Positions 10,671-18,839 of a stretch of DNA of 64,000 nucleotides are shown here, one piece after another. The notes under the pieces are model-generated. The model made no database searches and was not told the DNA's origin. It saw only the letters and a program-made list of their open reading frames with translations. The first letter of the stretch is position 1. Every line of letters starts with the position of its first letter. The stretch comes from a virus (lineage: Duplodnaviria; Caudoviricetes): IMG/VR virus record IMGVR_UViG_2974629863_000001, positions 70,974-134,973 of that record. One strand, written 5' to 3'. The translations under genes and the position numbers were made by a program.

Positions 10671-10743
10671 GGTGCATTAGCTCAGCTGGTAGAGCAACGT
10701 CCTCTTAAGTCGTGGGTCATTGGTTCAAGTCCAATATGCATCA
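10671..10743 (+). tRNA. trnK: tRNA-Lys(CUU)
   Basis: ggtgcat/atgcatc, acgtc-ctcttaa-gtcgt (U30-U40 mismatch), ttcaagt. Confidence 0.9.
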
Positions 10744-10788
10744 CGTGGCGGGTTTTGATGGTTTCCTGGAGAACAAAATATCATCAAT

Positions 10789-10865
10789 GCGAGTGTAGTG
10801 TTTAACATGGTCTAGCACGTCAGTCTTCCAAACTGAAAGTGTGGGTTCGAATCCCGTCATTCGCT
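10789..10865 (+). tRNA. trnG: tRNA-Gly(UCC)
   Basis: gcgagtg/cattcgc, tcagt-cttccaa-actga, ttcgaat. Confidence 0.9.
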
Positions 10866-12027: not shown

Positions 12028-12100
12028 TCCCGCATAGCTCAATTGGCAGAGCACGGAGCTGTTAACTCCGGGGTTCTTGGTTCGAGTCCAAGTGTGGGAG
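12028..12100 (+). tRNA. trnN: tRNA-Asn(GUU)
   Basis: tcccgca/tgtggga, cggag-ctgttaa-ctccg. Confidence 0.95.
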
Positions 12101-12419
12101 CTTTATACAACAACTATTCGAAAGGCATTATCAATGAGTCGTCGGTACGTAAGATATGAAGTTGATGCAAATTTTAATTTAATTTCAGCTACAGCCACTT
12201 CATTTTCAACTTTTGATGCGGATCTTATCGATCCGAAAGCGCATTACGTATACATCATTCCCTGGTCAGATTCTATTTCAGGCGCTAATCATCTAATATG
12301 GTCTGCAAAAGAAGGATACACTGATATAAAGAATGATCCAAAATTCAGAAAATATGAATTGATTAAAGAAGAGCTAATCGAACAATACGGTTCAATCGAA
12401 AACTAACAAAGGAAATAAA

Positions 12420-14498
12420 ATGCTAGTAGATCTTAAGAGAAACTTCATTACTACTAATGATTCTCGCTCACCCGCAACTGATCAGGAAAAGGTCGCATTT
12501 ATTCTAGAGGCAGCTAATCTAGGATACGCAGTTCCTTTCGAAGCAATTGCCAAGGTTTCAAATGCCAATCTTTTGAATGTTCTTAACAACATGAAGACAT
12601 TTAAGGGTGTCGGTAAGGATTGGACTCCTTTTTACCCTAACTTCCCTCGCCAGGTACAGTTGGCATCGGGTTGGGAACTCTTCTTGAATGCTTTTATTCA
12701 TTACGGCAGTATGGCATTTGGTCGTGATATTCGTCCAGATTACCCAGTGGAGATTCGCCGGAAGCTAGAAGTAGTTTCAGAAGATCTAACTCTACTTACA
12801 CTAGTAGAAGAAGAAGAACTACTTACCTCTGAGATTGAAACCCTTCAGAATAAGGTCTCTCTTTCGGCAGAAGACTTTGTTAGCATCACGAATGCAATTG
12901 TTCAGTATGGAATCAACAAGTCTGTCAAGTTGATTGATGGTTTCAAGTTTGATAACAAGGAAAACTGGATTCAGTCTCTCAAGATTCTAATTGATCTTGA
13001 AGTTCCTGTTTATAAGGTAGAAGCTATTGCTTACAAGGAAGCTAAGACTGCAACAGATCTTTTGCGTGCAATTTTCATGCTGTACTCAGATGAGAATGTT
13101 CACATTGATCTAACTGCTAAGAATAAGAAGGTTTACCTCAAGTCTATTCCGCGTGCTTCTCGTCAACTGATTATCGAGAATATTGATTCATCAGATTACA
13201 ATATGGATGACTTCTTTATTCATCGTAAGCTCTGGAAGATTGTGGATCGTAAGATTCATCCAGGAGATTATTCTAACTTCACGAATGCTCTAAATGCATT
13301 TGATATTGTTCGTGGTACTGTCAAGTACAAGACGTTCAATTCACGTGTAGAGTCTGCCATTGCTTCAGGTAATGCAGCAGATATCGCAAGCCTTCTGAAG
13401 ACTCGTCCTGGTGTCTTTGCCCGTCGTCTAGATCATGCTCTACGATCAGTAGATGCAGATGGACAGAAGACAATTGCAGAGGCTTTTGGTTCTGTGGCAA
13501 CTAAGATCAGCACTCCTGTTCTTATTTCACTCTACAATGGCATTATCAATCGTGACAATACAGCTTCAGTAATTCGCACTAAGTCGGGGCAGACTGCTAA
13601 TGTTACCAATGTTAAGGCATCTATTCATGATGTAATTGTATTTGCCATTGGTGAGATTATTCTCGCAGCTCTTAGTGCAAGTTATGCAGATCGTGATCCT
13701 ATGGGTAAGGTCTATGTTTCGCCGGATCTTAAGAACTTTTCTGCACCACTACAGCAGCGTACTGTTTCTTCAGGTCGTGTATTGCCACGTGGATCACGAG
13801 TTCCGATGGAAATAGAAGGCACTCTACGATTCTTTATTCATTGGTACAATATGGATGAAGCATATGGTCGGGTTGATCTTGATATGGACGCAATCTTTCT
13901 AGATGATAATCTAGTGGTTCAGGATTTCGTTTCATATCATCGTCTACGCAATACATATTCAACTCACTCAGGTGATATCACCAATGCCCCACTTCCAAGC
14001 GGAGCTGCAGAGTTTGTTGATGTTGACGTAGCTAAGGCAAAGCGTCAAGGGGTTCGATACGTATTGATGAATATCAATAGCTTCACTGGTCAGAAGTTTG
14101 ATCAGGTAGAGAACTTTGCTGGTTACATGGTTCGCAATGGTGATCCGCAGGATGGAGAAATCTTCGATCCTAAGACTGTAAAGAGTGCATTTAGTATTTC
14201 ATCTCCTACGGGAAATGCAATGCCAGGTGTATTCGATCTAGAGGCTGGTCTATTTGTTTGGCTGGACACTTCATTGGGCAATGCGGGCGTAGGCTTCAAC
14301 GCTCGCCAGGGTTCGACCGAGCTAGCCGAAACGCTTCGACTCGAGCTTGACAAGCAGTCGCTCACGGTGTACGATGTAATTACAGCCAACGCAAAGGCAC
14401 GCGGAATCCTAGTAGAGAAAGATGATGCAGATGTTATCTACGATCTTGAAACATTAGATATCTACGATTCAAACGGATTCATTAACAAGTTTCTTTAA
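12420..14498 (+). CDS. Large helical-domain + C-terminal TerD-domain protein (candidate Ro/TROVE-like RNA-binding protein)
   Basis: TerD motifs RFFIHW..VDLDMDA, HSGDITNAP, AAEFVDVD, NSFTGQKF; long helical N-terminal region (FYPNFP, TATDLLR, IHPGDY, RPGVFARRLD); ncRNA array immediately downstream. Confidence 0.7.
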   Translation: MLVDLKRNFITTNDSRSPATDQEKVAFILEAANLGYAVPFEAIAKVSNANLLNVLNNMKTFKGVGKDWTPFYPNFPRQVQLASGWELFLNAFIHYGSMAFGRDIRPDYPVEIRRKLEVVSEDLTLLTLVEEEELLTSEIETLQNKVSLSAEDFVSITNAIVQYGINKSVKLIDGFKFDNKENWIQSLKILIDLEVPVYKVEAIAYKEAKTATDLLRAIFMLYSDENVHIDLTAKNKKVYLKSIPRASRQLIIENIDSSDYNMDDFFIHRKLWKIVDRKIHPGDYSNFTNALNAFDIVRGTVKYKTFNSRVESAIASGNAADIASLLKTRPGVFARRLDHALRSVDADGQKTIAEAFGSVATKISTPVLISLYNGIINRDNTASVIRTKSGQTANVTNVKASIHDVIVFAIGEIILAALSASYADRDPMGKVYVSPDLKNFSAPLQQRTVSSGRVLPRGSRVPMEIEGTLRFFIHWYNMDEAYGRVDLDMDAIFLDDNLVVQDFVSYHRLRNTYSTHSGDITNAPLPSGAAEFVDVDVAKAKRQGVRYVLMNINSFTGQKFDQVENFAGYMVRNGDPQDGEIFDPKTVKSAFSISSPTGNAMPGVFDLEAGLFVWLDTSLGNAGVGFNARQGSTELAETLRLELDKQSLTVYDVITANAKARGILVEKDDADVIYDLETLDIYDSNGFINKFL
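14347..14375 (+). promoter_or_regulatory. Intragenic SigA-type promoter facing the ncRNA array
   Basis: TTGACA(14347)-17-TACGAT(14370) in a GC-rich patch near the 3' end of the TerD gene. Confidence 0.6.
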
Positions 14499-14504
14499 GT
14501 AGTA

Positions 14505-14575
14505 ATAGGGATTAAGAATAGTTTACTTCTACTATTAATTGGATAATAAAAAAACTAACTATCCGCTCACCCTAT
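14505..14575 (+). ncRNA. Y-RNA-like repeat unit 1
   Basis: ataggg-ATTAA-gaatagtt-TACTTC-loop-aactatcc-GCTCA-ccctat. Confidence 0.75.
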
Positions 14576-14586
14576 ATCACTTAACA

Positions 14587-14655
14587 AAGAGGCTCAAGTA
14601 TAGGTTACTTCCTTTTTATATGACAAAAAACAAATTACCTATGCGCTCACCTCTT
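14587..14655 (+). ncRNA. Y-RNA-like repeat unit 2
   Basis: aagagg-CTCAA-gtataggt-TACTTC-loop-acctatgc-GCTCA-cctctt. Confidence 0.75.
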
Positions 14656-14665
14656 CTAAATTTCA

Positions 14666-14791
14666 TCAGGATTAAGATTAACTTACTTCGCCTCTTAAGC
14701 GGGTGGGTACGGGTTCGAATCCCGTTGCTAGTGATATCACTGGTATAGCTCAATTGGCAGAGCAACCTTTTTCAGTTAATCGCTCGCCTGG
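14666..14791 (+). ncRNA. Y-RNA-like repeat unit 3 containing a circularly permuted tRNA-Lys(CUU) mimic (YrlA-like)
   Basis: tcagg-ATTAA-gattaact-TACTTC-[cgc-ctcttaa-gcg; acggg-ttcgaat-cccgt; tgctagtg-atat-cactggta; tagctcaattggcagagca]-agttaatc-GCTCG-cctgg. Confidence 0.85.
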
Positions 14792-14799
14792 CAAACTTC

Positions 14800-14862
14800 A
14801 GAAGGCTTAAATATGACTTACTTCTATGAATCGGTCAAATATTAGTCATATGCTCACCTTCT
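14800..14862 (+). ncRNA. Y-RNA-like repeat unit 4
   Basis: agaagg-CTTAA-atatgact-TACTTC-loop-agtcatat-GCTCA-ccttct. Confidence 0.75.
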
Positions 14863-17654
14863 CTTAGCCAACAAGGATATCATTTAATGATAGACAAATA
14901 TTACGTAATTGTAACAAACAAATACACCGCCCACCACCTAGACATCTTCGAAGAATTTTGGGGTGGGTCTTTTTGGTTTAAAGCCAATGCCCAAAGAGCA
15001 GCATTTTTCGTAAGCAATAGTCCTGAAGTCATTCGTGAACAATGGACTGTGATGGTAGAACTCAGACCTAAGAACACTCCACGCAAAACTTTTCCACACC
15101 GATAGGAAACCAATGATTTCGACAGTTAAGTATTGGTCTGTTGAAGACGAAGAGCCGGTAGTAAAAGACATCTATAAAGTGTCACCGATAAACGAATACG
15201 AATATTACATCGAATATACCGACCTAGGAAAACACTGGGTAAGTCTTCTACTTAAAATGCACCAACACTACATTAACTCTGAGATTGATCAATTCGTTGC
15301 CACTTCACAGGCAGTTGAATACGGCAAAAAAGCAGTCATAAAAATTCTACTTGAAAACTATTGGCCGATTGAAAGAATAGTTGAAGAATATAGAGAACCG
15401 GGCTTATATGATTACCAGTTTAAAAACTGGTATGATCTGGCCTGTCCACTACCAGATGATGATCAAGATTGGCTCGGACTCCACCGACGCCAAGATAGAT
15501 TTATTAAGATCGGACAATGATGCACGTCTATTATGCAGAGTGGAATTCAACAGTAAACGAATGGTTCGGATATACCCCGAACATGCCAAGTGTTAAATGT
15601 TTTCATGTTAGTGCTGCAACTGCACTCCAAAATATTAAAACGGTACATGAATGGTACTTAGGAGAACCAGATGTCAACGAACTACTATCTATATAAGAAG
15701 TGCTCTGACGCTTGCCTACATTGCACTGGTGAAATAGAACTTCACATTTGCAAGAACCTAACAATGTTTAGAGCCTACGAAATAGAAGATACTTCGATCA
15801 AGAGCTGGCAAGACTGGATTGCTTACCTAGCAACTCAAGTTTATTTGAATGACGGTCTCATTAAAGATGAGTACGGCAGGATACATTCTCTTGATTATTT
15901 CATTCACAGTGTAAATGAAACCACATTAGAAAGCAGACGAAAGTATTATGACTACAGTGTTGAGCATTTTGGGCCTGATGACTCTTTTTGGCTTGATCCT
16001 CAAGGTTTTGATTTCACCGCGAAAGAGTTTAGCTAGTCTGAAGAAGTGTTTTGGTTTTCGAAATCAAAGCGGTTTGTCTGGCTATACCACTCTAAGAATC
16101 TTCAAAATCAGCTTCTATTTCCACCCTCGCTACTCTTGGGTAGAGCAATGGTCTTGGGAGCGAGGCCGGTGTGAAGAGAGACGTCTACGTTTCCCACTAG
16201 GTAAGAAATACTCTCTAGAGATTTACGGCGAAGGAAAGACTTACTTAGAACTAGTTAATGGTCCAGAGTATCTCAAGGATCTTGACTGGATTCTAGATGA
16301 GTTTGATTCTAGCTTTAATGATCTAGCGACTGCAAGTCTTCGATACCACTTGGATCATTCAATTTGTGATCAATCACGTAATCGTGAGAAGTATGAAGAT
16401 ATTATCGAGCGTCTAGCAGAAAAATCGCCGGAAGTGTGTGGTACCCCTGAGCAAAGAGCTATTTATGACGAACACTACAGTAATGAAACTGTAGAAGAAA
16501 TGTTCGAAAATCTCAATAAGCCTACCCCACCAGCAATCAAAGAAATCTATGCAGACTTTGATAAGCGTGAAAAAGAATATCATGAACGCCAACTGCAGGC
16601 TAGGATTGACTTTGTGAAGGTCATGCCGGGACTTTGGAGCTAATATGATTAATCTGTACTTTGATCTAAAAGATTCCATTCTGCCAGTGAAGGTATCGTT
16701 TGAACATACAGATGGGCTTAGCCTAGAAATTGGCTTAACAGCAGAAATGATTCATGATGCACATCAATGGTTAGAGGAGCAAGGATTATGAGCTGGGAAT
16801 CAGTCTGGGTTGGTAGTATTCCTGAAGAGTCAATTGATAGACGAGTTGATGTTCTAAAATGGGCATTTGGATATCTTGACGGAGACCCTAATTCCATTGA
16901 CGAATATCAATGGCGATATATGGCCGAGCAAACAATTCTGGATAATCCAACTATGATGATTGCAGCTCATGATTTTCCAGCTCCCTTAGAGTGGGAATAT
17001 TCAGTTTATGGCGATCGTTTATATGAAGATCGTGAGCCAATGAAAGATATTATGCTTTCAACTTGGGATTGGAACTTGAAAGCAGTTCAAAAAATGGCAG
17101 AGTATTGGAACGAAAACGAACACACTGAAAATGCCAAAGTATATTGCAGGCTAGCGTCTGACAAAGTAGAGTTTAAGGATGAAAACAATGCCTAATGGTG
17201 ATCTAACTCGACAGAACAAGTCACTACGAACTAAGGTTCTAAATCAGCGAAAAGAAATTAAGACTCTAGTTAAGCGTCTAGAAAATGTAGAAACGCTTAA
17301 CTCAACTGCATATCTTCAGGGGTATGCAAAGGCTCTAGAGCTGATGAATGGTTCTTGCAGTGACTAGGTACATTGTAGAGAGTAATGGCCTGTATGGAGA
17401 TGATTTAGTAGAGTTAATAGAACTTGGCCTAGCATCAAAGATGAATATATCCAGAGAAACTGTTCAGGGTTTAATGTGGTCATGTTGCTATATTTCAGCA
17501 GGCGAATTCGAAGGTATTACTATTAAATACTACGAAAAAGATAAAGTCTATGTAGCCGACGATGGTTGTATGCTTTACTATGGTTCTGGACTAACAGAGC
17601 AGGACGCTTTGCAAGATTTTATAAATGAACGCCGCCAGAGAACTAAGGATGATA

Positions 17655-18839
17655 ATGTTTCCAGTTGAACTACCAGGTGCTCAGGCTAATACAAAGCTTT
17701 GGTTACCGCCAGAAGCTATTGAACATGAAGCTTATGAGCAGCTTCTCAATGTATCTCGTCTGCCTTGGATTGACCGTCTAGCAGTGATGCCAGATTGCCA
17801 TTTCGGTAAGGGTGCAACGGTTGGCAGTGTCCTAGGAATGAAGAATGCCATTTCACCTAGTGCTGTTGGTGTTGACCTTGGTTGTGGTATGTCTGCAGTC
17901 AAGACCAGTCTTAATGCAAAGGATCTTCCAGAAGACCTAACTGCACTACGCACAAAAATTGAAGAGCAGATTCCCGTTGGACGTAATTCACACAAGTCTG
18001 AAGTTAAGTACCAGCGTCTAGAAGTAAACCAGCAGGACGTTACAAAGCTTTGGAATGATGCTAAGTCACTCAATGCAGATGTAAAGAATCGTCTAGATTA
18101 TGCAGCTAATCAGGTTGGTACTCTAGGTGGAGGCAACCACTTTATCGAGATTTGTCTAGATGAGCAAGAAGATGTTTGGGTTATGCTTCATTCAGGTTCT
18201 CGAAACATCGGTAAGGTAATTGCAGAATCTCACATTGCAGTTGCTAAGGCACAGGAACACAACTTTGATCTTCCAGATCGTGATCTAGCTGTATTGCTAG
18301 AGAACACTGATGAGTTCAATAGTTATGTTTATGATGTTTATTGGGCGCAGCGCTATGCACGTATCAATCGTGAGGTTATGTTAGGAATCTTCAAAAAGAT
18401 TCTTCGACACGAGTTCCCAGAAATTAAGTTCGAGGATAATATCAGTTGTCACCACAACTACATCGACACTGAACACATCGACGGTGTAGACTTGATAGTG
18501 ACCCGCAAGGGAGCAATTCGAGCGGGAGAAGGGCAGCTAGGGCTTATTCCTGGTTCTATGGGAACGGGTAGCTACGTTGTTCGTGGTCTCGGTAATGCCG
18601 ATTCTATGTTCTCAGCTTCTCACGGAGCAGGACGTAAGATGTCTCGTTCTAAGGCTAAGAAGACATTTACGGTAGATGATCTAGCAGAGCAGACGCTAGG
18701 TGTAAATTGCCGGAAGGATCAGGGAGTTGTAGATGAAATTCCTGGTGCCTATAAAGATATCAATGAAGTAATTAAGCGTCAGGAATCACTAGTAGAACCC
18801 CTACATTTCCTGAGACAAATTCTATGTGTAAAGGGGTAG
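17655..18839 (+). CDS. rtcB: RtcB family RNA 2',3'-cyclic phosphate/5'-OH ligase
   Basis: VMPDCHFGKG, VGVDLGCG, GTLGGGNHFIE, HSGSRNIG, CHHNY, RKGA, PGSMG, SHGAGRKMSR, DEIPGAYK, VKG. Confidence 0.97.
   Translation: MFPVELPGAQANTKLWLPPEAIEHEAYEQLLNVSRLPWIDRLAVMPDCHFGKGATVGSVLGMKNAISPSAVGVDLGCGMSAVKTSLNAKDLPEDLTALRTKIEEQIPVGRNSHKSEVKYQRLEVNQQDVTKLWNDAKSLNADVKNRLDYAANQVGTLGGGNHFIEICLDEQEDVWVMLHSGSRNIGKVIAESHIAVAKAQEHNFDLPDRDLAVLLENTDEFNSYVYDVYWAQRYARINREVMLGIFKKILRHEFPEIKFEDNISCHHNYIDTEHIDGVDLIVTRKGAIRAGEGQLGLIPGSMGTGSYVVRGLGNADSMFSASHGAGRKMSRSKAKKTFTVDDLAEQTLGVNCRKDQGVVDEIPGAYKDINEVIKRQESLVEPLHFLRQILCVKG

What the first reader, a model, noticed from the sequence alone, without database searches (positions are those of the whole stretch)
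14687..14767. Complete circularly permuted tRNA-Lys(CUU) with a sealed acceptor stem inside array unit 3
Seen in sequence, 5' to 3': anticodon hairpin cgc-CTCTTAA-gcg (same loop as the phage tRNA-Lys), ggt, variable gggt, T arm acggg-TTCGAAT-cccgt. Next is an acceptor stem closed into a hairpin (tgctagtg-atat-cactggta), a D arm tagctcaattggcagagca (19/19 identical to the phage tRNA-Asn D arm), and acc, which pairs with ggt to finish the anticodon stem. All four arms exist, but the chain enters and leaves in the anticodon stem and there is no 3' CCA, so it cannot be charged. Established: YrlA RNAs have a T/closed-acceptor/D module but lack an anticodon loop; PrrC and PARIS AriB cleave tRNA-Lys. 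Inference: an unchargeable tRNA-Lys decoy or bait for anticodon nucleases or tRNA-modifying toxins, tethered to the protein. Alternatively it is a precursor that phage RtcB ligates and that is then opened into a real tRNA.
Basis: partly seen in the sequence, partly recalled or inferred. Interest (0 to 1): 0.9.

Follow-up and report, generated by a model that had tools for sequence, protein, structure and literature searches.

The report
Phage Y RNA mimicking whole tRNA-Lys
This phage encodes a small RNA shaped like a complete tRNA-Lys, anticodon arm included, with a sealed amino-acid end and its chain ends in a protein-docking stem; it is a variant of the known bacterial YrlA "Y RNAs", and it suggests their so-called variable arm is really an anticodon-arm mimic.

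Summary
Every element is at the stated coordinates, and ARAGORN calls the rejoined sequence tRNA-Lys(ctt).

It is not a lone oddity. It is unit 3 (14666-14791) of four tandem Y-RNA-like units that follow a 692-aa helical+TerD protein. It belongs to the YrlA class of tRNA-like Y RNAs (Rfam YrlA 26.4 bits, below the threshold of 69).

The extra hairpin is conserved. The split 5-bp "anticodon stem" (2 bp closing the tRNA core plus a 3-bp hairpin with a 7-nt loop) is perfect in 42 of 53 phage and 43 of 66 bacterial relatives, against about 5% in shuffles, and it covaries. In the 42 perfect phage cases the loops follow tRNA rules: U33 in 40, a purine at 37 in all 42, and U36 with A37 or G36 with G37. 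The anticodons differ between relatives.

Chen et al. 2014 saw this hairpin as a poorly conserved "V" stem-loop and read it as a variable arm. I did not find the anticodon reading in the papers I could search.

Of 34 neighbouring genes checked, 32 encode Ro60. Here, and in phages and bacteria carrying related proteins, the partner is the TerD-fused protein, and its RNAs share a "handle" sequence of their own.

The function (decoy, bait or tether) is untested. A role as a tRNA precursor is unlikely. Earlier notes of this scan describe related tRNA-shaped Y RNAs on other DNA.

The parts
14666..14791 (+). Whole RNA unit 3: Y-RNA-like scaffold carrying the permuted tRNA-Lys-like module
   Evidence: Outer stem 14666-14670/14787-14791 and inner stem 14677-14682/14775-14780 read; pairs listed; 92.6 bits to family model R1, which was trained with this sequence.
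14669..14689 (+). 5' 'handle': GGATTAAG, 6-nt inner-stem strand, invariant TTACTTC (the conserved YUAY of YrlA)
   Evidence: The motif GGNTNAA-N5-10-TTACTNC occurs 4 times in the 64-kb window, once per unit and none on the minus strand. It gives 14 hits in 12 of 24 TerD-protein loci and 0 in 133 Ro60 loci.
14689..14701 (+). Anticodon-arm mimic: 3-bp stem cgc/gcg with 7-nt loop CTCTTAA (anticodon CTT at 14694-14696)
   Evidence: In the family all three pairs show changes on both sides and 82% of cells are paired. Loop composition.
14702..14704 (+). 3' strand of the proximal anticodon stem (ggt), pairs with 14765-14767
   Evidence: The family 2-bp helix is 92% paired with double changes at both pairs.
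14705..14708 (+). Variable region gggt; T14708 is position 48
   Evidence: A15:U48 Levitt pair here. Positions 15 and 48 covary as G:C or A:U in 114 of 122 relatives.
14709..14725 (+). T arm acggg-TTCGAAT-cccgt
14726..14745 (+). Sealed acceptor stem: 7 bp plus a closing G-C, loop atat, no CCA
14746..14764 (+). U8 A9, D arm gctc-aattggca-gagc, A26
   Evidence: 19/19 identical to the D arm of tRNA-Asn at 12028-12101.
14765..14767 (+). 5' strand of the proximal anticodon stem (acc); the chain then leaves into the scaffold
14505..14575 (+). Array unit 1: same scaffold, short A/U-rich payload, no tRNA module
   Evidence: Stems ATAGGG/CCCTAT and ATAGTT/AACTAT read; handle motif.
14587..14655 (+). 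Array unit 2: same scaffold
   Evidence: Stems AAGAGG/CCTCTT and ATAGGT/ACCTAT; handle motif.
14800..14862 (+). Array unit 4: same scaffold
   Evidence: Stems AGAAGG/CCTTCT and ATATGAC/GTCATAT; handle motif.
12420..14498 (+). 692-aa helical + TerD protein, the candidate protein partner (it occupies the position that Ro60 holds elsewhere)
   Evidence: phrog_33734, no Pfam match. NF041916 partial match. AF2 pLDDT 86. TerD fold Z 16.6. Relatives lie beside similar RNAs in L002, L006, L053 and Flavobacterium loci.
17739..18836 (+). RtcB RNA ligase (context; not shown to act on this RNA)
   Evidence: PF01139, 405 bits; 91% identical to the RtcB of Rhodococcus phage Grayson.

Best explanation
Unit 3 is a Y RNA of the YrlA class. 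Its 5' and 3' ends pair into a bulged stem (the 'handle' GGATTAAG...TTACTTC / CGCTCGCC) that most likely docks the adjacent helical+TerD protein, as Y RNA stems dock Ro60.

The stem carries a full-body tRNA mimic: T arm, sealed acceptor, D arm, and an anticodon arm. The anticodon arm is assembled from a 2-3-bp helix that closes the tRNA core and a 3-bp hairpin that follows it with no intervening nucleotide. The two should therefore stack into a nicked 5-6-bp stem that presents a 7-nt tRNA-Lys(CUU) loop.

Shown: the sequence anatomy; conservation and covariation of the fold across more than 80 relatives; tRNA-like loop rules; and co-location with Ro60 or with the TerD-fused protein.

Inferred: the RNA tethers its ring or scaffold protein to, or competes for, factors that read both the tRNA body and the anticodon loop. 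These could be anticodon nucleases, anticodon-loop modification enzymes or repair enzymes such as the phage RtcB. It cannot itself be aminoacylated as made.
For: Anatomy and ARAGORN call on the rejoined sequence.

Homologue L002 (protein 53% identical) has the same unit with CCA-CTTTCAC-TGG plus CC/GG, called tRNA-Glu(ttc). Ruegeria phage RpAliso unit 2 has CCC-ATGATAA-GGG plus CC/GG. L053 has CGA-CTTGTAA-TCG plus AG/CT.

Family statistics: the 5/5 split stem is found in 42/53 and 43/66 relatives against a 5% null; U33 in 40/42; R37 in 42/42; A38 in 40/42. Positions 36 and 37 covary as U-A (34 cases) or G-G (7 cases).

Covariation on 132 sequences aligned to the model: 92% of cells paired against 61% in shuffles and 39-48% when slid.

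Neighbouring genes: 32 of 34 are TROVE/Ro60.

The handle is specific to TerD-type loci.

Published properties of YrlA: PMC4201824 and 10.1101/312249.
Against: No expression, binding or modification data exist for this RNA.

The energy model favours a shifted hairpin in this particular sequence.

The protein partner is inferred from adjacency only. Its homology to Ro60 is not established: hhalign E 0.072, and Z 6.5 over 322 residues is not above other HEAT-repeat matches.

The relatives were collected with a pattern whose spacing leaves room for a hairpin, so the share of YrlA RNAs that have it is unknown.

Alignment A6 is fitted to the model.
Confidence: 0.72

Rival explanations
1. Decoy or bait, the first reader's reading: the sealed tRNA-Lys look-alike soaks up or reports host enzymes that attack or modify anticodon loops (PrrC/RloC-type or colicin-type nucleases, PARIS AriB, modification enzymes). 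This would protect real tRNAs while phage RtcB reseals breaks. It is a specific form of the best explanation, listed separately because it names the target.
For: Complete anticodon loop with U33 and R37, and isoacceptor-like anticodons that differ between relatives (Lys, Glu, Ile, Thr, Asn, Ser, Arg). RtcB lies 3 kb away. The module lies among phage tRNA genes. It is an accessory insert absent from the close relative Rhodococcus phage Grayson. The Salmonella rsr-yrlBA-rtcBA operon responds to damaged tRNAs (PMC7790460, abstract seen).
Against: No nuclease or target was identified here. Near-identical relatives differ at position 34 (L024 GUU against L056 AUU), which argues against strict isoacceptor mimicry. 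Loops are strongly biased to U36-A37-A38 (33/42; p 1e-10 against my estimate of about 30% in real tRNA sets), which suggests one common reader rather than many different nucleases.
Confidence: 0.25
2. Permuted tRNA precursor: the scaffold is excised, RtcB joins position 28 to 29, and RNase P/Z open the acceptor loop to give a working tRNA-Lys. A variant is that RNase P alone opens the acceptor and CCA is added, giving a chargeable two-piece tRNA.
For: The acceptor stem is 7 bp here and in 25/53 relatives, and 7 bp is an RNase P determinant. M. smegmatis YrlA is cleaved by RNase P and receives CCA in vivo (PMC4201824). RpAliso unit 2 encodes ACCA directly after its acceptor 3' strand and lies near a CCA-adding enzyme gene. 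RtcB is present. Flavobacterium relatives are unpermuted with an open acceptor end. Wang 2018 raised the processing idea.
Against: Many relatives seal the acceptor with loops of 0-4 nt or GCAA/TTCG-type tetraloops. NCCA follows the acceptor 3' strand in only 3/53. I saw no bulge-helix-bulge motif, and I did not search for a splicing endonuclease. The flanks are a conserved protein-docking scaffold shared with units that carry no tRNA. The phage already encodes tRNA-Lys(CUU). The residue at the discriminator position is G.
Confidence: 0.07
3. The hairpin is only a variable-arm-like stabilising stem-loop (the published 'V' reading), and its anticodon look is incidental.
For: Chen 2014 modelled it as a V arm. 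Some relatives have loops of 3-16 nt or no hairpin at all. The classical Rfam consensus has only CUA at this position.
Against: The hairpin lies 5' of positions 42-43, not between 44 and 48. A normal 4-5-nt variable region with a covarying 15:48 pair follows it. The loop is 7 nt with U33, R37 and 36/37 covariation, which variable arms do not show. The stem adds up to exactly 5 bp.
Confidence: 0.1

Closest known systems
YrlA (Y RNA-like A), Rfam RF02553; Chen et al. 2014 (PMC4201824), Wang et al. 2018 (10.1101/312249)
   Same: Chain ends pair into a protein-docking stem. T arm, closed acceptor hairpin and D arm come in that order. The conserved YUAY (TTAC here) precedes a 'V' stem-loop upstream of the T arm. 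Units occur in tandem and lie beside the partner protein gene and near RtcB. The papers already describe YrlA as resembling circularly permuted tRNAs.
   Different: It scores 26.4 bits against a gathering score of 69. The docking motif is GGATTAAG / CGCTCG rather than GNCGAAN0-1G. The adjacent protein has no detectable TROVE domain and carries TerD in place of vWA. The 'V' hairpin is read here as an anticodon arm with tRNA loop rules, whereas the papers say YrlA lacks an anticodon loop.
Circularly permuted tRNA genes of Cyanidioschyzon merolae and some algae and archaea (Soma et al. 2007, as cited in 10.1101/312249)
   Same: The 3' half precedes the 5' half, the acceptor is closed in the primary transcript, and the ends pair near the anticodon region.
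   Different: Those genes have a bulge-helix-bulge motif and are matured into working tRNAs by the splicing endonuclease and ligase. Here the break lies within the anticodon stem at about position 28/29, inside a Y-RNA scaffold, with no such motif seen and no evidence of maturation.
Ro60-Y RNA ribonucleoproteins (D. radiodurans Rsr-Yrn1-PNPase; Thermus phage phiLo Ro60-Yrl1/2, PMC12135203)
   Same: A gene for a large helical-repeat protein lies beside tandem small structured RNAs, and this arrangement also occurs in phages.
   Different: The protein's C-terminal domain is TerD (Z 16.6) rather than vWA. N-terminal similarity to the Ro60 ring is only suggestive.
tRNA-like structures with an anticodon-domain mimic (TYMV TLS, tmRNA-SmpB)
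   Same: The L-shaped tRNA body is mimicked together with an anticodon-domain element.
   Different: Those have a free CCA end and are aminoacylated. This RNA has a sealed acceptor.

Membership tests
YrlA (Rfam RF02553) | Score at or above the Rfam gathering threshold (69 bits) | tested here: not met
   26.4 bits, E 0.0018, model positions 23-86 only. Relatives with the hairpin score 30-46 bits.
YrlA (Rfam RF02553) | T arm, closed acceptor-like hairpin and D arm in that order, closed by a stem between the flanks | tested here: met
YrlA (Rfam RF02553) | Conserved YUAY 5' of the tRNA-like domain, starting the 'V' region (Chen 2014) | tested here: met
   TTAC at 14683-14686 lies within the invariant TTACTTC.
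YrlA (Rfam RF02553) | GNCGAAN0-1G Ro60-binding motif near the 5' end | tested here: not met
   The 5' strand reads GGATTAAG, and units 2 and 4 read GGCTCAAG and GGCTTAA. The resemblance to the motif is only partial.
YrlA (Rfam RF02553) | Encoded within a few kb of a TROVE (Ro60) gene on the same strand | tested here: not met
   No TROVE match in the whole 135-kb phage. The neighbour is a helical+TerD protein.
YrlA (Rfam RF02553) | tRNA tertiary pairs, e.g. the Levitt 15:48 pair with compensatory change | tested here: met
   A15:U48 here. The family shows G:C in 81 and A:U in 33 of 122.
Functional tRNA / permuted tRNA gene | Cloverleaf with a 7-nt anticodon loop, U33 and R37 | tested here: met
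   ARAGORN on the rejoined sequence calls tRNA-Lys(ctt).
Functional tRNA / permuted tRNA gene | Free or processable 3' end with CCA, and a processing motif (bulge-helix-bulge) at the permutation junction | tested here: not met
   The acceptor is sealed by the loop atat and no CCA is encoded. The junction is a 6-bp stem plus internal loop shared with units that carry no tRNA.
Functional tRNA / permuted tRNA gene | A mature unpermuted RNA species exists | not testable with these tools
   Needs RNA-seq or circular RT-PCR.
Ro60 (TROVE) protein, for the 692-aa neighbour | Sequence match to TROVE | tested here: not met
   No Pfam match even at E 10. hhalign of its family against 32 phage Ro60 proteins gives E 0.072 over 57 columns.
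Ro60 (TROVE) protein, for the 692-aa neighbour | HEAT-repeat ring fold | tested here: inconclusive
   Ro60 chains give the longest alignments (2nvo Z 6.5, 322 aa, rmsd 5.3; 9nep, 1yvp, 9l5y), but their Z is no higher than that of other helical repeats.

The most novel reading that the evidence does not exclude
The 'V arm' of YrlA-type Y RNAs is a true anticodon-arm mimic. These RNPs (Ro60-based, or TerD-protein-based as here) present an unchargeable, isoacceptor-like tRNA to enzymes that read anticodon loops. The RNP would then act as a bait, sensor or inhibitor in the conflict between phage and host over tRNA.
Probability: 0.25. Interest if true: 0.85.

Novelty: new variant of a known kind. 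Interest (0 to 1): 0.66.

Why it matters
YrlA RNAs are established tRNA mimics, but what their tRNA-like domain binds is unknown, and they are described as lacking an anticodon loop.

A large share of the relatives collected here, in phages and in bacteria, carry a hairpin that obeys anticodon-loop rules and completes a 5-bp anticodon stem. This turns a vague "variable arm" into a specific hypothesis: the partner reads the anticodon loop.

The hypothesis can be tested in culturable systems. Gordonia phages VanLee and Trax and Streptomyces phage BRock carry such RNAs.

The work also links a second, uncharacterised protein family (helical + TerD, with relatives named MXAN_6230/SCO0854) to Y-RNA-like partners. 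That would extend the Ro60-Y RNA principle to another scaffold protein.

It also flags an annotation pitfall: GenBank lists a tRNA-Arg(tct) where VanLee has one of these RNAs.

Tried and rejected
The contigs of the closest protein relatives (P0002 at 92%, P0003 to P0005 at 56-58%) could not be fetched, so conservation of the CUU loop among near relatives is unknown.
- blastn of the array against cultured phages found nothing.
- Protein-guided scans of viral contigs and genome contigs found nothing. Alignment A2 was too diverse to scan with.
- Pfam and a PDB sequence search gave nothing for the 692-aa protein.
- hhalign of its family against phage Ro60 proteins was not significant. The protein Atlas gave only TerD/RING relatives, none TROVE.
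- I considered that the element is the junction of two decayed tandem tRNA genes (3' part of one, 5' part of the next). I rejected this because the acceptor strands pair perfectly, the layout recurs with covariation in more than 80 loci, and it always sits inside the Y scaffold.
- I considered a terminator role for the T run at 14768-14772. The scan called no terminator there.
- The MFE fold disagrees with the cloverleaf. I set it aside because its alternative is not conserved.
- Burroughs & Aravind 2016 and the Sim et al. 2020 review could not be read.

Full report
**Observation.**
- The hairpin is cgc-CTCTTAA-gcg.
- ggt (14702-14704) pairs with acc (14765-14767).
- A 4-nt variable region follows, then the T arm acggg-TTCGAAT-cccgt.
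- The acceptor is closed: 7 bp plus a G-C pair around the loop atat.
- Then come U8 A9, the D arm and A26.

The loop equals that of the phage's own tRNA-Lys(CUU) at 10671-10744. The D arm is 19/19 identical to that of tRNA-Asn at 12028-12101. ARAGORN finds nothing here in the native order. When the acceptor loop is opened and acc is joined to cgc, it calls tRNA-Lys(ctt). Rfam's best match is YrlA at 26.4 bits (E 0.0018; gathering score 69), over the T/acceptor/D part only.

**Setting.** The window is part of a 134,973-bp phage genome with terminal repeats. Its RtcB is 91% identical to that of Rhodococcus phages Grayson and Peregrin.

The element is unit 3 of four tandem units (14505-14575, 14587-14655, 14666-14791, 14800-14862). 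They start 7 nt after the stop codon of a 692-aa ORF (12420-14498). Each unit has:
- an outer stem;
- an internal loop (5' ATTAAG, CTCAAG or CTTAA opposite 3' (C)GCTCA or CGCTCG);
- a 6-7-bp inner stem whose sequence differs in every unit while staying complementary;
- the invariant TTACTTC;
- a payload.

Only unit 3 carries a tRNA body. The stretch 12407-16163, which holds the protein and the array, is missing from Grayson although both flanks are conserved. It is therefore an accessory module. RtcB lies at 17739-18836.

**Relatives with the same protein.**
- L002 is a metagenome contig whose protein is 53% identical. It has the same array after the gene. Its unit 3 reads TTACTCC-A... with CCA-CTTTCAC-TGG, then CC, GGGTT, T arm, closed acceptor, D arm, A, GG. 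This gives a 2+3-bp split anticodon stem with a Glu-type loop, and ARAGORN calls the rejoined form tRNA-Glu(ttc).
- Ruegeria phage RpAliso (28% identity) has four units upstream of its homologue. One carries CCC-ATGATAA-GGG plus CC/GG, an Ile-type GAU loop.
- L053 has the homologue followed by units with TTACTTC. One carries CGA-CTTGTAA-TCG plus AG/CT, a Thr-type loop.

The stems covary and the 'anticodons' differ.

**Wider family.** Of 53 distinct phage and 66 bacterial hits that also have the closed acceptor and D arm, 42 and 43 have all five pairs of the split stem. After shuffling the 26 nt upstream of the T arm, the figures are 5.5% and 5.0%.

In the 42 perfect phage cases:
- position 33 is U in 40;
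- position 37 is a purine in all 42;
- position 38 is A in 40;
- every pair shows several Watson-Crick types.

Positions 36 and 37 covary as in real tRNAs: U36-A37 in 34 cases and G36-G37 in 7. U36 is over-represented at 33/42. By my own estimate roughly 30% of real tRNA species have U36, which gives p about 1e-10. The Levitt pair 15:48 covaries in 114/122, which fixes the register of the variable region.

A covariance model built on 40 of these sequences found 133 matches in 99 sources. On that alignment, which is fitted to the model:
- 92.4% of cells pair, against 61% in shuffles and 39-48% when the partner is slid;
- the hairpin is 82% paired;
- the 2-bp helix is 92% paired;
- both show changes on both sides at every pair.

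Many loci hold two to four tandem units.

**Partner proteins.** Of 34 ORFs next to the phage RNAs, 32 carry TROVE, and many also carry the Ro60 vWA domain. These are Ro60-linked Y RNAs.

The phage studied here has no TROVE match. Findings on its 692-aa protein:
- It has no Pfam domain and belongs to phrog_33734.
- It partly matches NF041916, the MXAN_6230/SCO0854 family.
- It folds with pLDDT 86 into a helical N-terminal part and a C-terminal TerD domain (Z 16.6 to 3ibz).
- Ro60 structures give the longest alignments to the helical part (2nvo: Z 6.5, 322 residues). Their Z does not exceed that of unrelated HEAT-repeat proteins.
- A profile-profile comparison is not significant.

Homology to Ro60 is therefore open.

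The genomic link between this protein family and these RNAs is strong. Its members lie next to TTACTTC-bearing RNAs in phages and in Flavobacterium, Lachnospiraceae and other genomes. The handle GGNTNAA-N5-10-TTACTNC gives 14 hits in 12 of 24 such loci, all on the protein's strand. It gives none in 133 Ro60 loci (1.1 Mb), and in the window it marks exactly the four units.

In Flavobacterium (L193) the tRNA-Lys(UUU)-like body is unpermuted, with an open acceptor. The Y module is inserted between positions 28 and 29. The same junction is thus used in both topologies.

**What is known.** Chen et al. 2014 (PMC4201824) defined YrlA. [quoted passage not shown] Wang et al. 2018 (10.1101/312249) state that YrlA 'lacks the anticodon loop'. 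They say most YrlA RNAs 'resemble circularly permuted tRNAs', and they raise possible processing.

The Rfam consensus has only CUA where the hairpin lies.

The permuted-tRNA idea and the existence of the hairpin are therefore in print. The reading of the hairpin as an anticodon arm with tRNA loop rules was not found in the library searched. Neither was the TerD-fused partner.

**Mechanism.** The hairpin's 3' strand runs into positions 42-43 without a spacer, while the scaffold is joined by short linkers. Coaxial stacking into a nicked 5-bp anticodon stem is the expected geometry; this is inference. The RNA is then an unchargeable full-body mimic of one tRNA, held on a docking stem.

By analogy with Ro60-Y RNA-effector complexes, it most likely tethers or competes for a factor that reads the tRNA body and the anticodon loop. 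The decoy reading is possible but untested. The U36-A37-A38 bias and variation at position 34 between near-identical relatives (L024 and L056) suggest a common reader rather than many isoacceptor-specific ones.

Maturation into a real tRNA is unlikely here:
- the acceptor is sealed and no CCA is encoded;
- the scaffold is shared with units that carry no tRNA;
- the phage has a second tRNA-Lys(CUU).

The 7-bp acceptor does leave RNase P opening possible.

**Limits.**
- There are no expression data.
- The energy model prefers a shifted hairpin for this sequence.
- The relatives were ascertained by a pattern.

Cultured phages with the same design offer test systems: Gordonia phages VanLee (UCU loop) and Trax (GCU loop), and Streptomyces phage BRock (GAU loop).

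Noticed in passing
window 12420-14498; L002, L006, L053, L193 and other loci: A helical + TerD protein family (phrog_33734; relatives named TerD family or MXAN_6230/SCO0854 RING) lies beside arrays of Y-RNA-like units with their own handle (GGYTCAA...TTACTTC) in phages and bacteria. It may be a second, Ro60-independent Y-RNA-type RNP.
   Followed up: partly
L251 1190-1339 (Gordonia phage VanLee NC_073474.1, record about 65440-65589): GenBank annotates tRNA-Arg(tct) at 65454-65525. That stretch is the 5' part of an anticodon-bearing YrlA-like RNA upstream of the Ro-like gene (105.9 bits to model R1), so the annotation is probably wrong.
   Followed up: partly
L193 4345-4460 (Flavobacterium notoginsengisoli): An unpermuted tRNA-Lys(UUU)-like gene with an open 7-bp acceptor and a 45-nt Y module inserted between positions 28 and 29 of the anticodon stem. 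More TTACTTC units and the TerD-family gene follow it.
   Followed up: partly
family-wide: The anticodon-like loops are strongly biased to C32-U33-N-N-U36-A37-A38 (U36 in 33/42 phage cases), the loop type of ANN-decoding, t6A37-bearing tRNAs. The reason is unexplained.
   Followed up: partly
L006 700-1330 (Ruegeria phage RpAliso): A permuted tmRNA gene (129.5 bits) lies directly upstream of the Y-like units. Unit 2 has ACCA encoded right after its 7-nt acceptor 3' strand, and a tRNA nucleotidyltransferase gene follows the TerD-family gene.
   Followed up: no
window 12407-16163: The protein + RNA array + five small ORFs form a block absent from Rhodococcus phage Grayson, where a block of about 500 bp (CDS 150) lies between the same conserved flanks.
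   Followed up: partly
window 10789-10865: Rfam calls a tRNA here (53.4 bits) that ARAGORN did not report.
   Followed up: no
L026 6182-6803: Four tandem YrlA-like units sit beside one phage Ro60 gene. One has the same GC-CTCTTAA-GC loop as the window, and others lack the 7-nt loop. Mixed arrays seem common.
   Followed up: no
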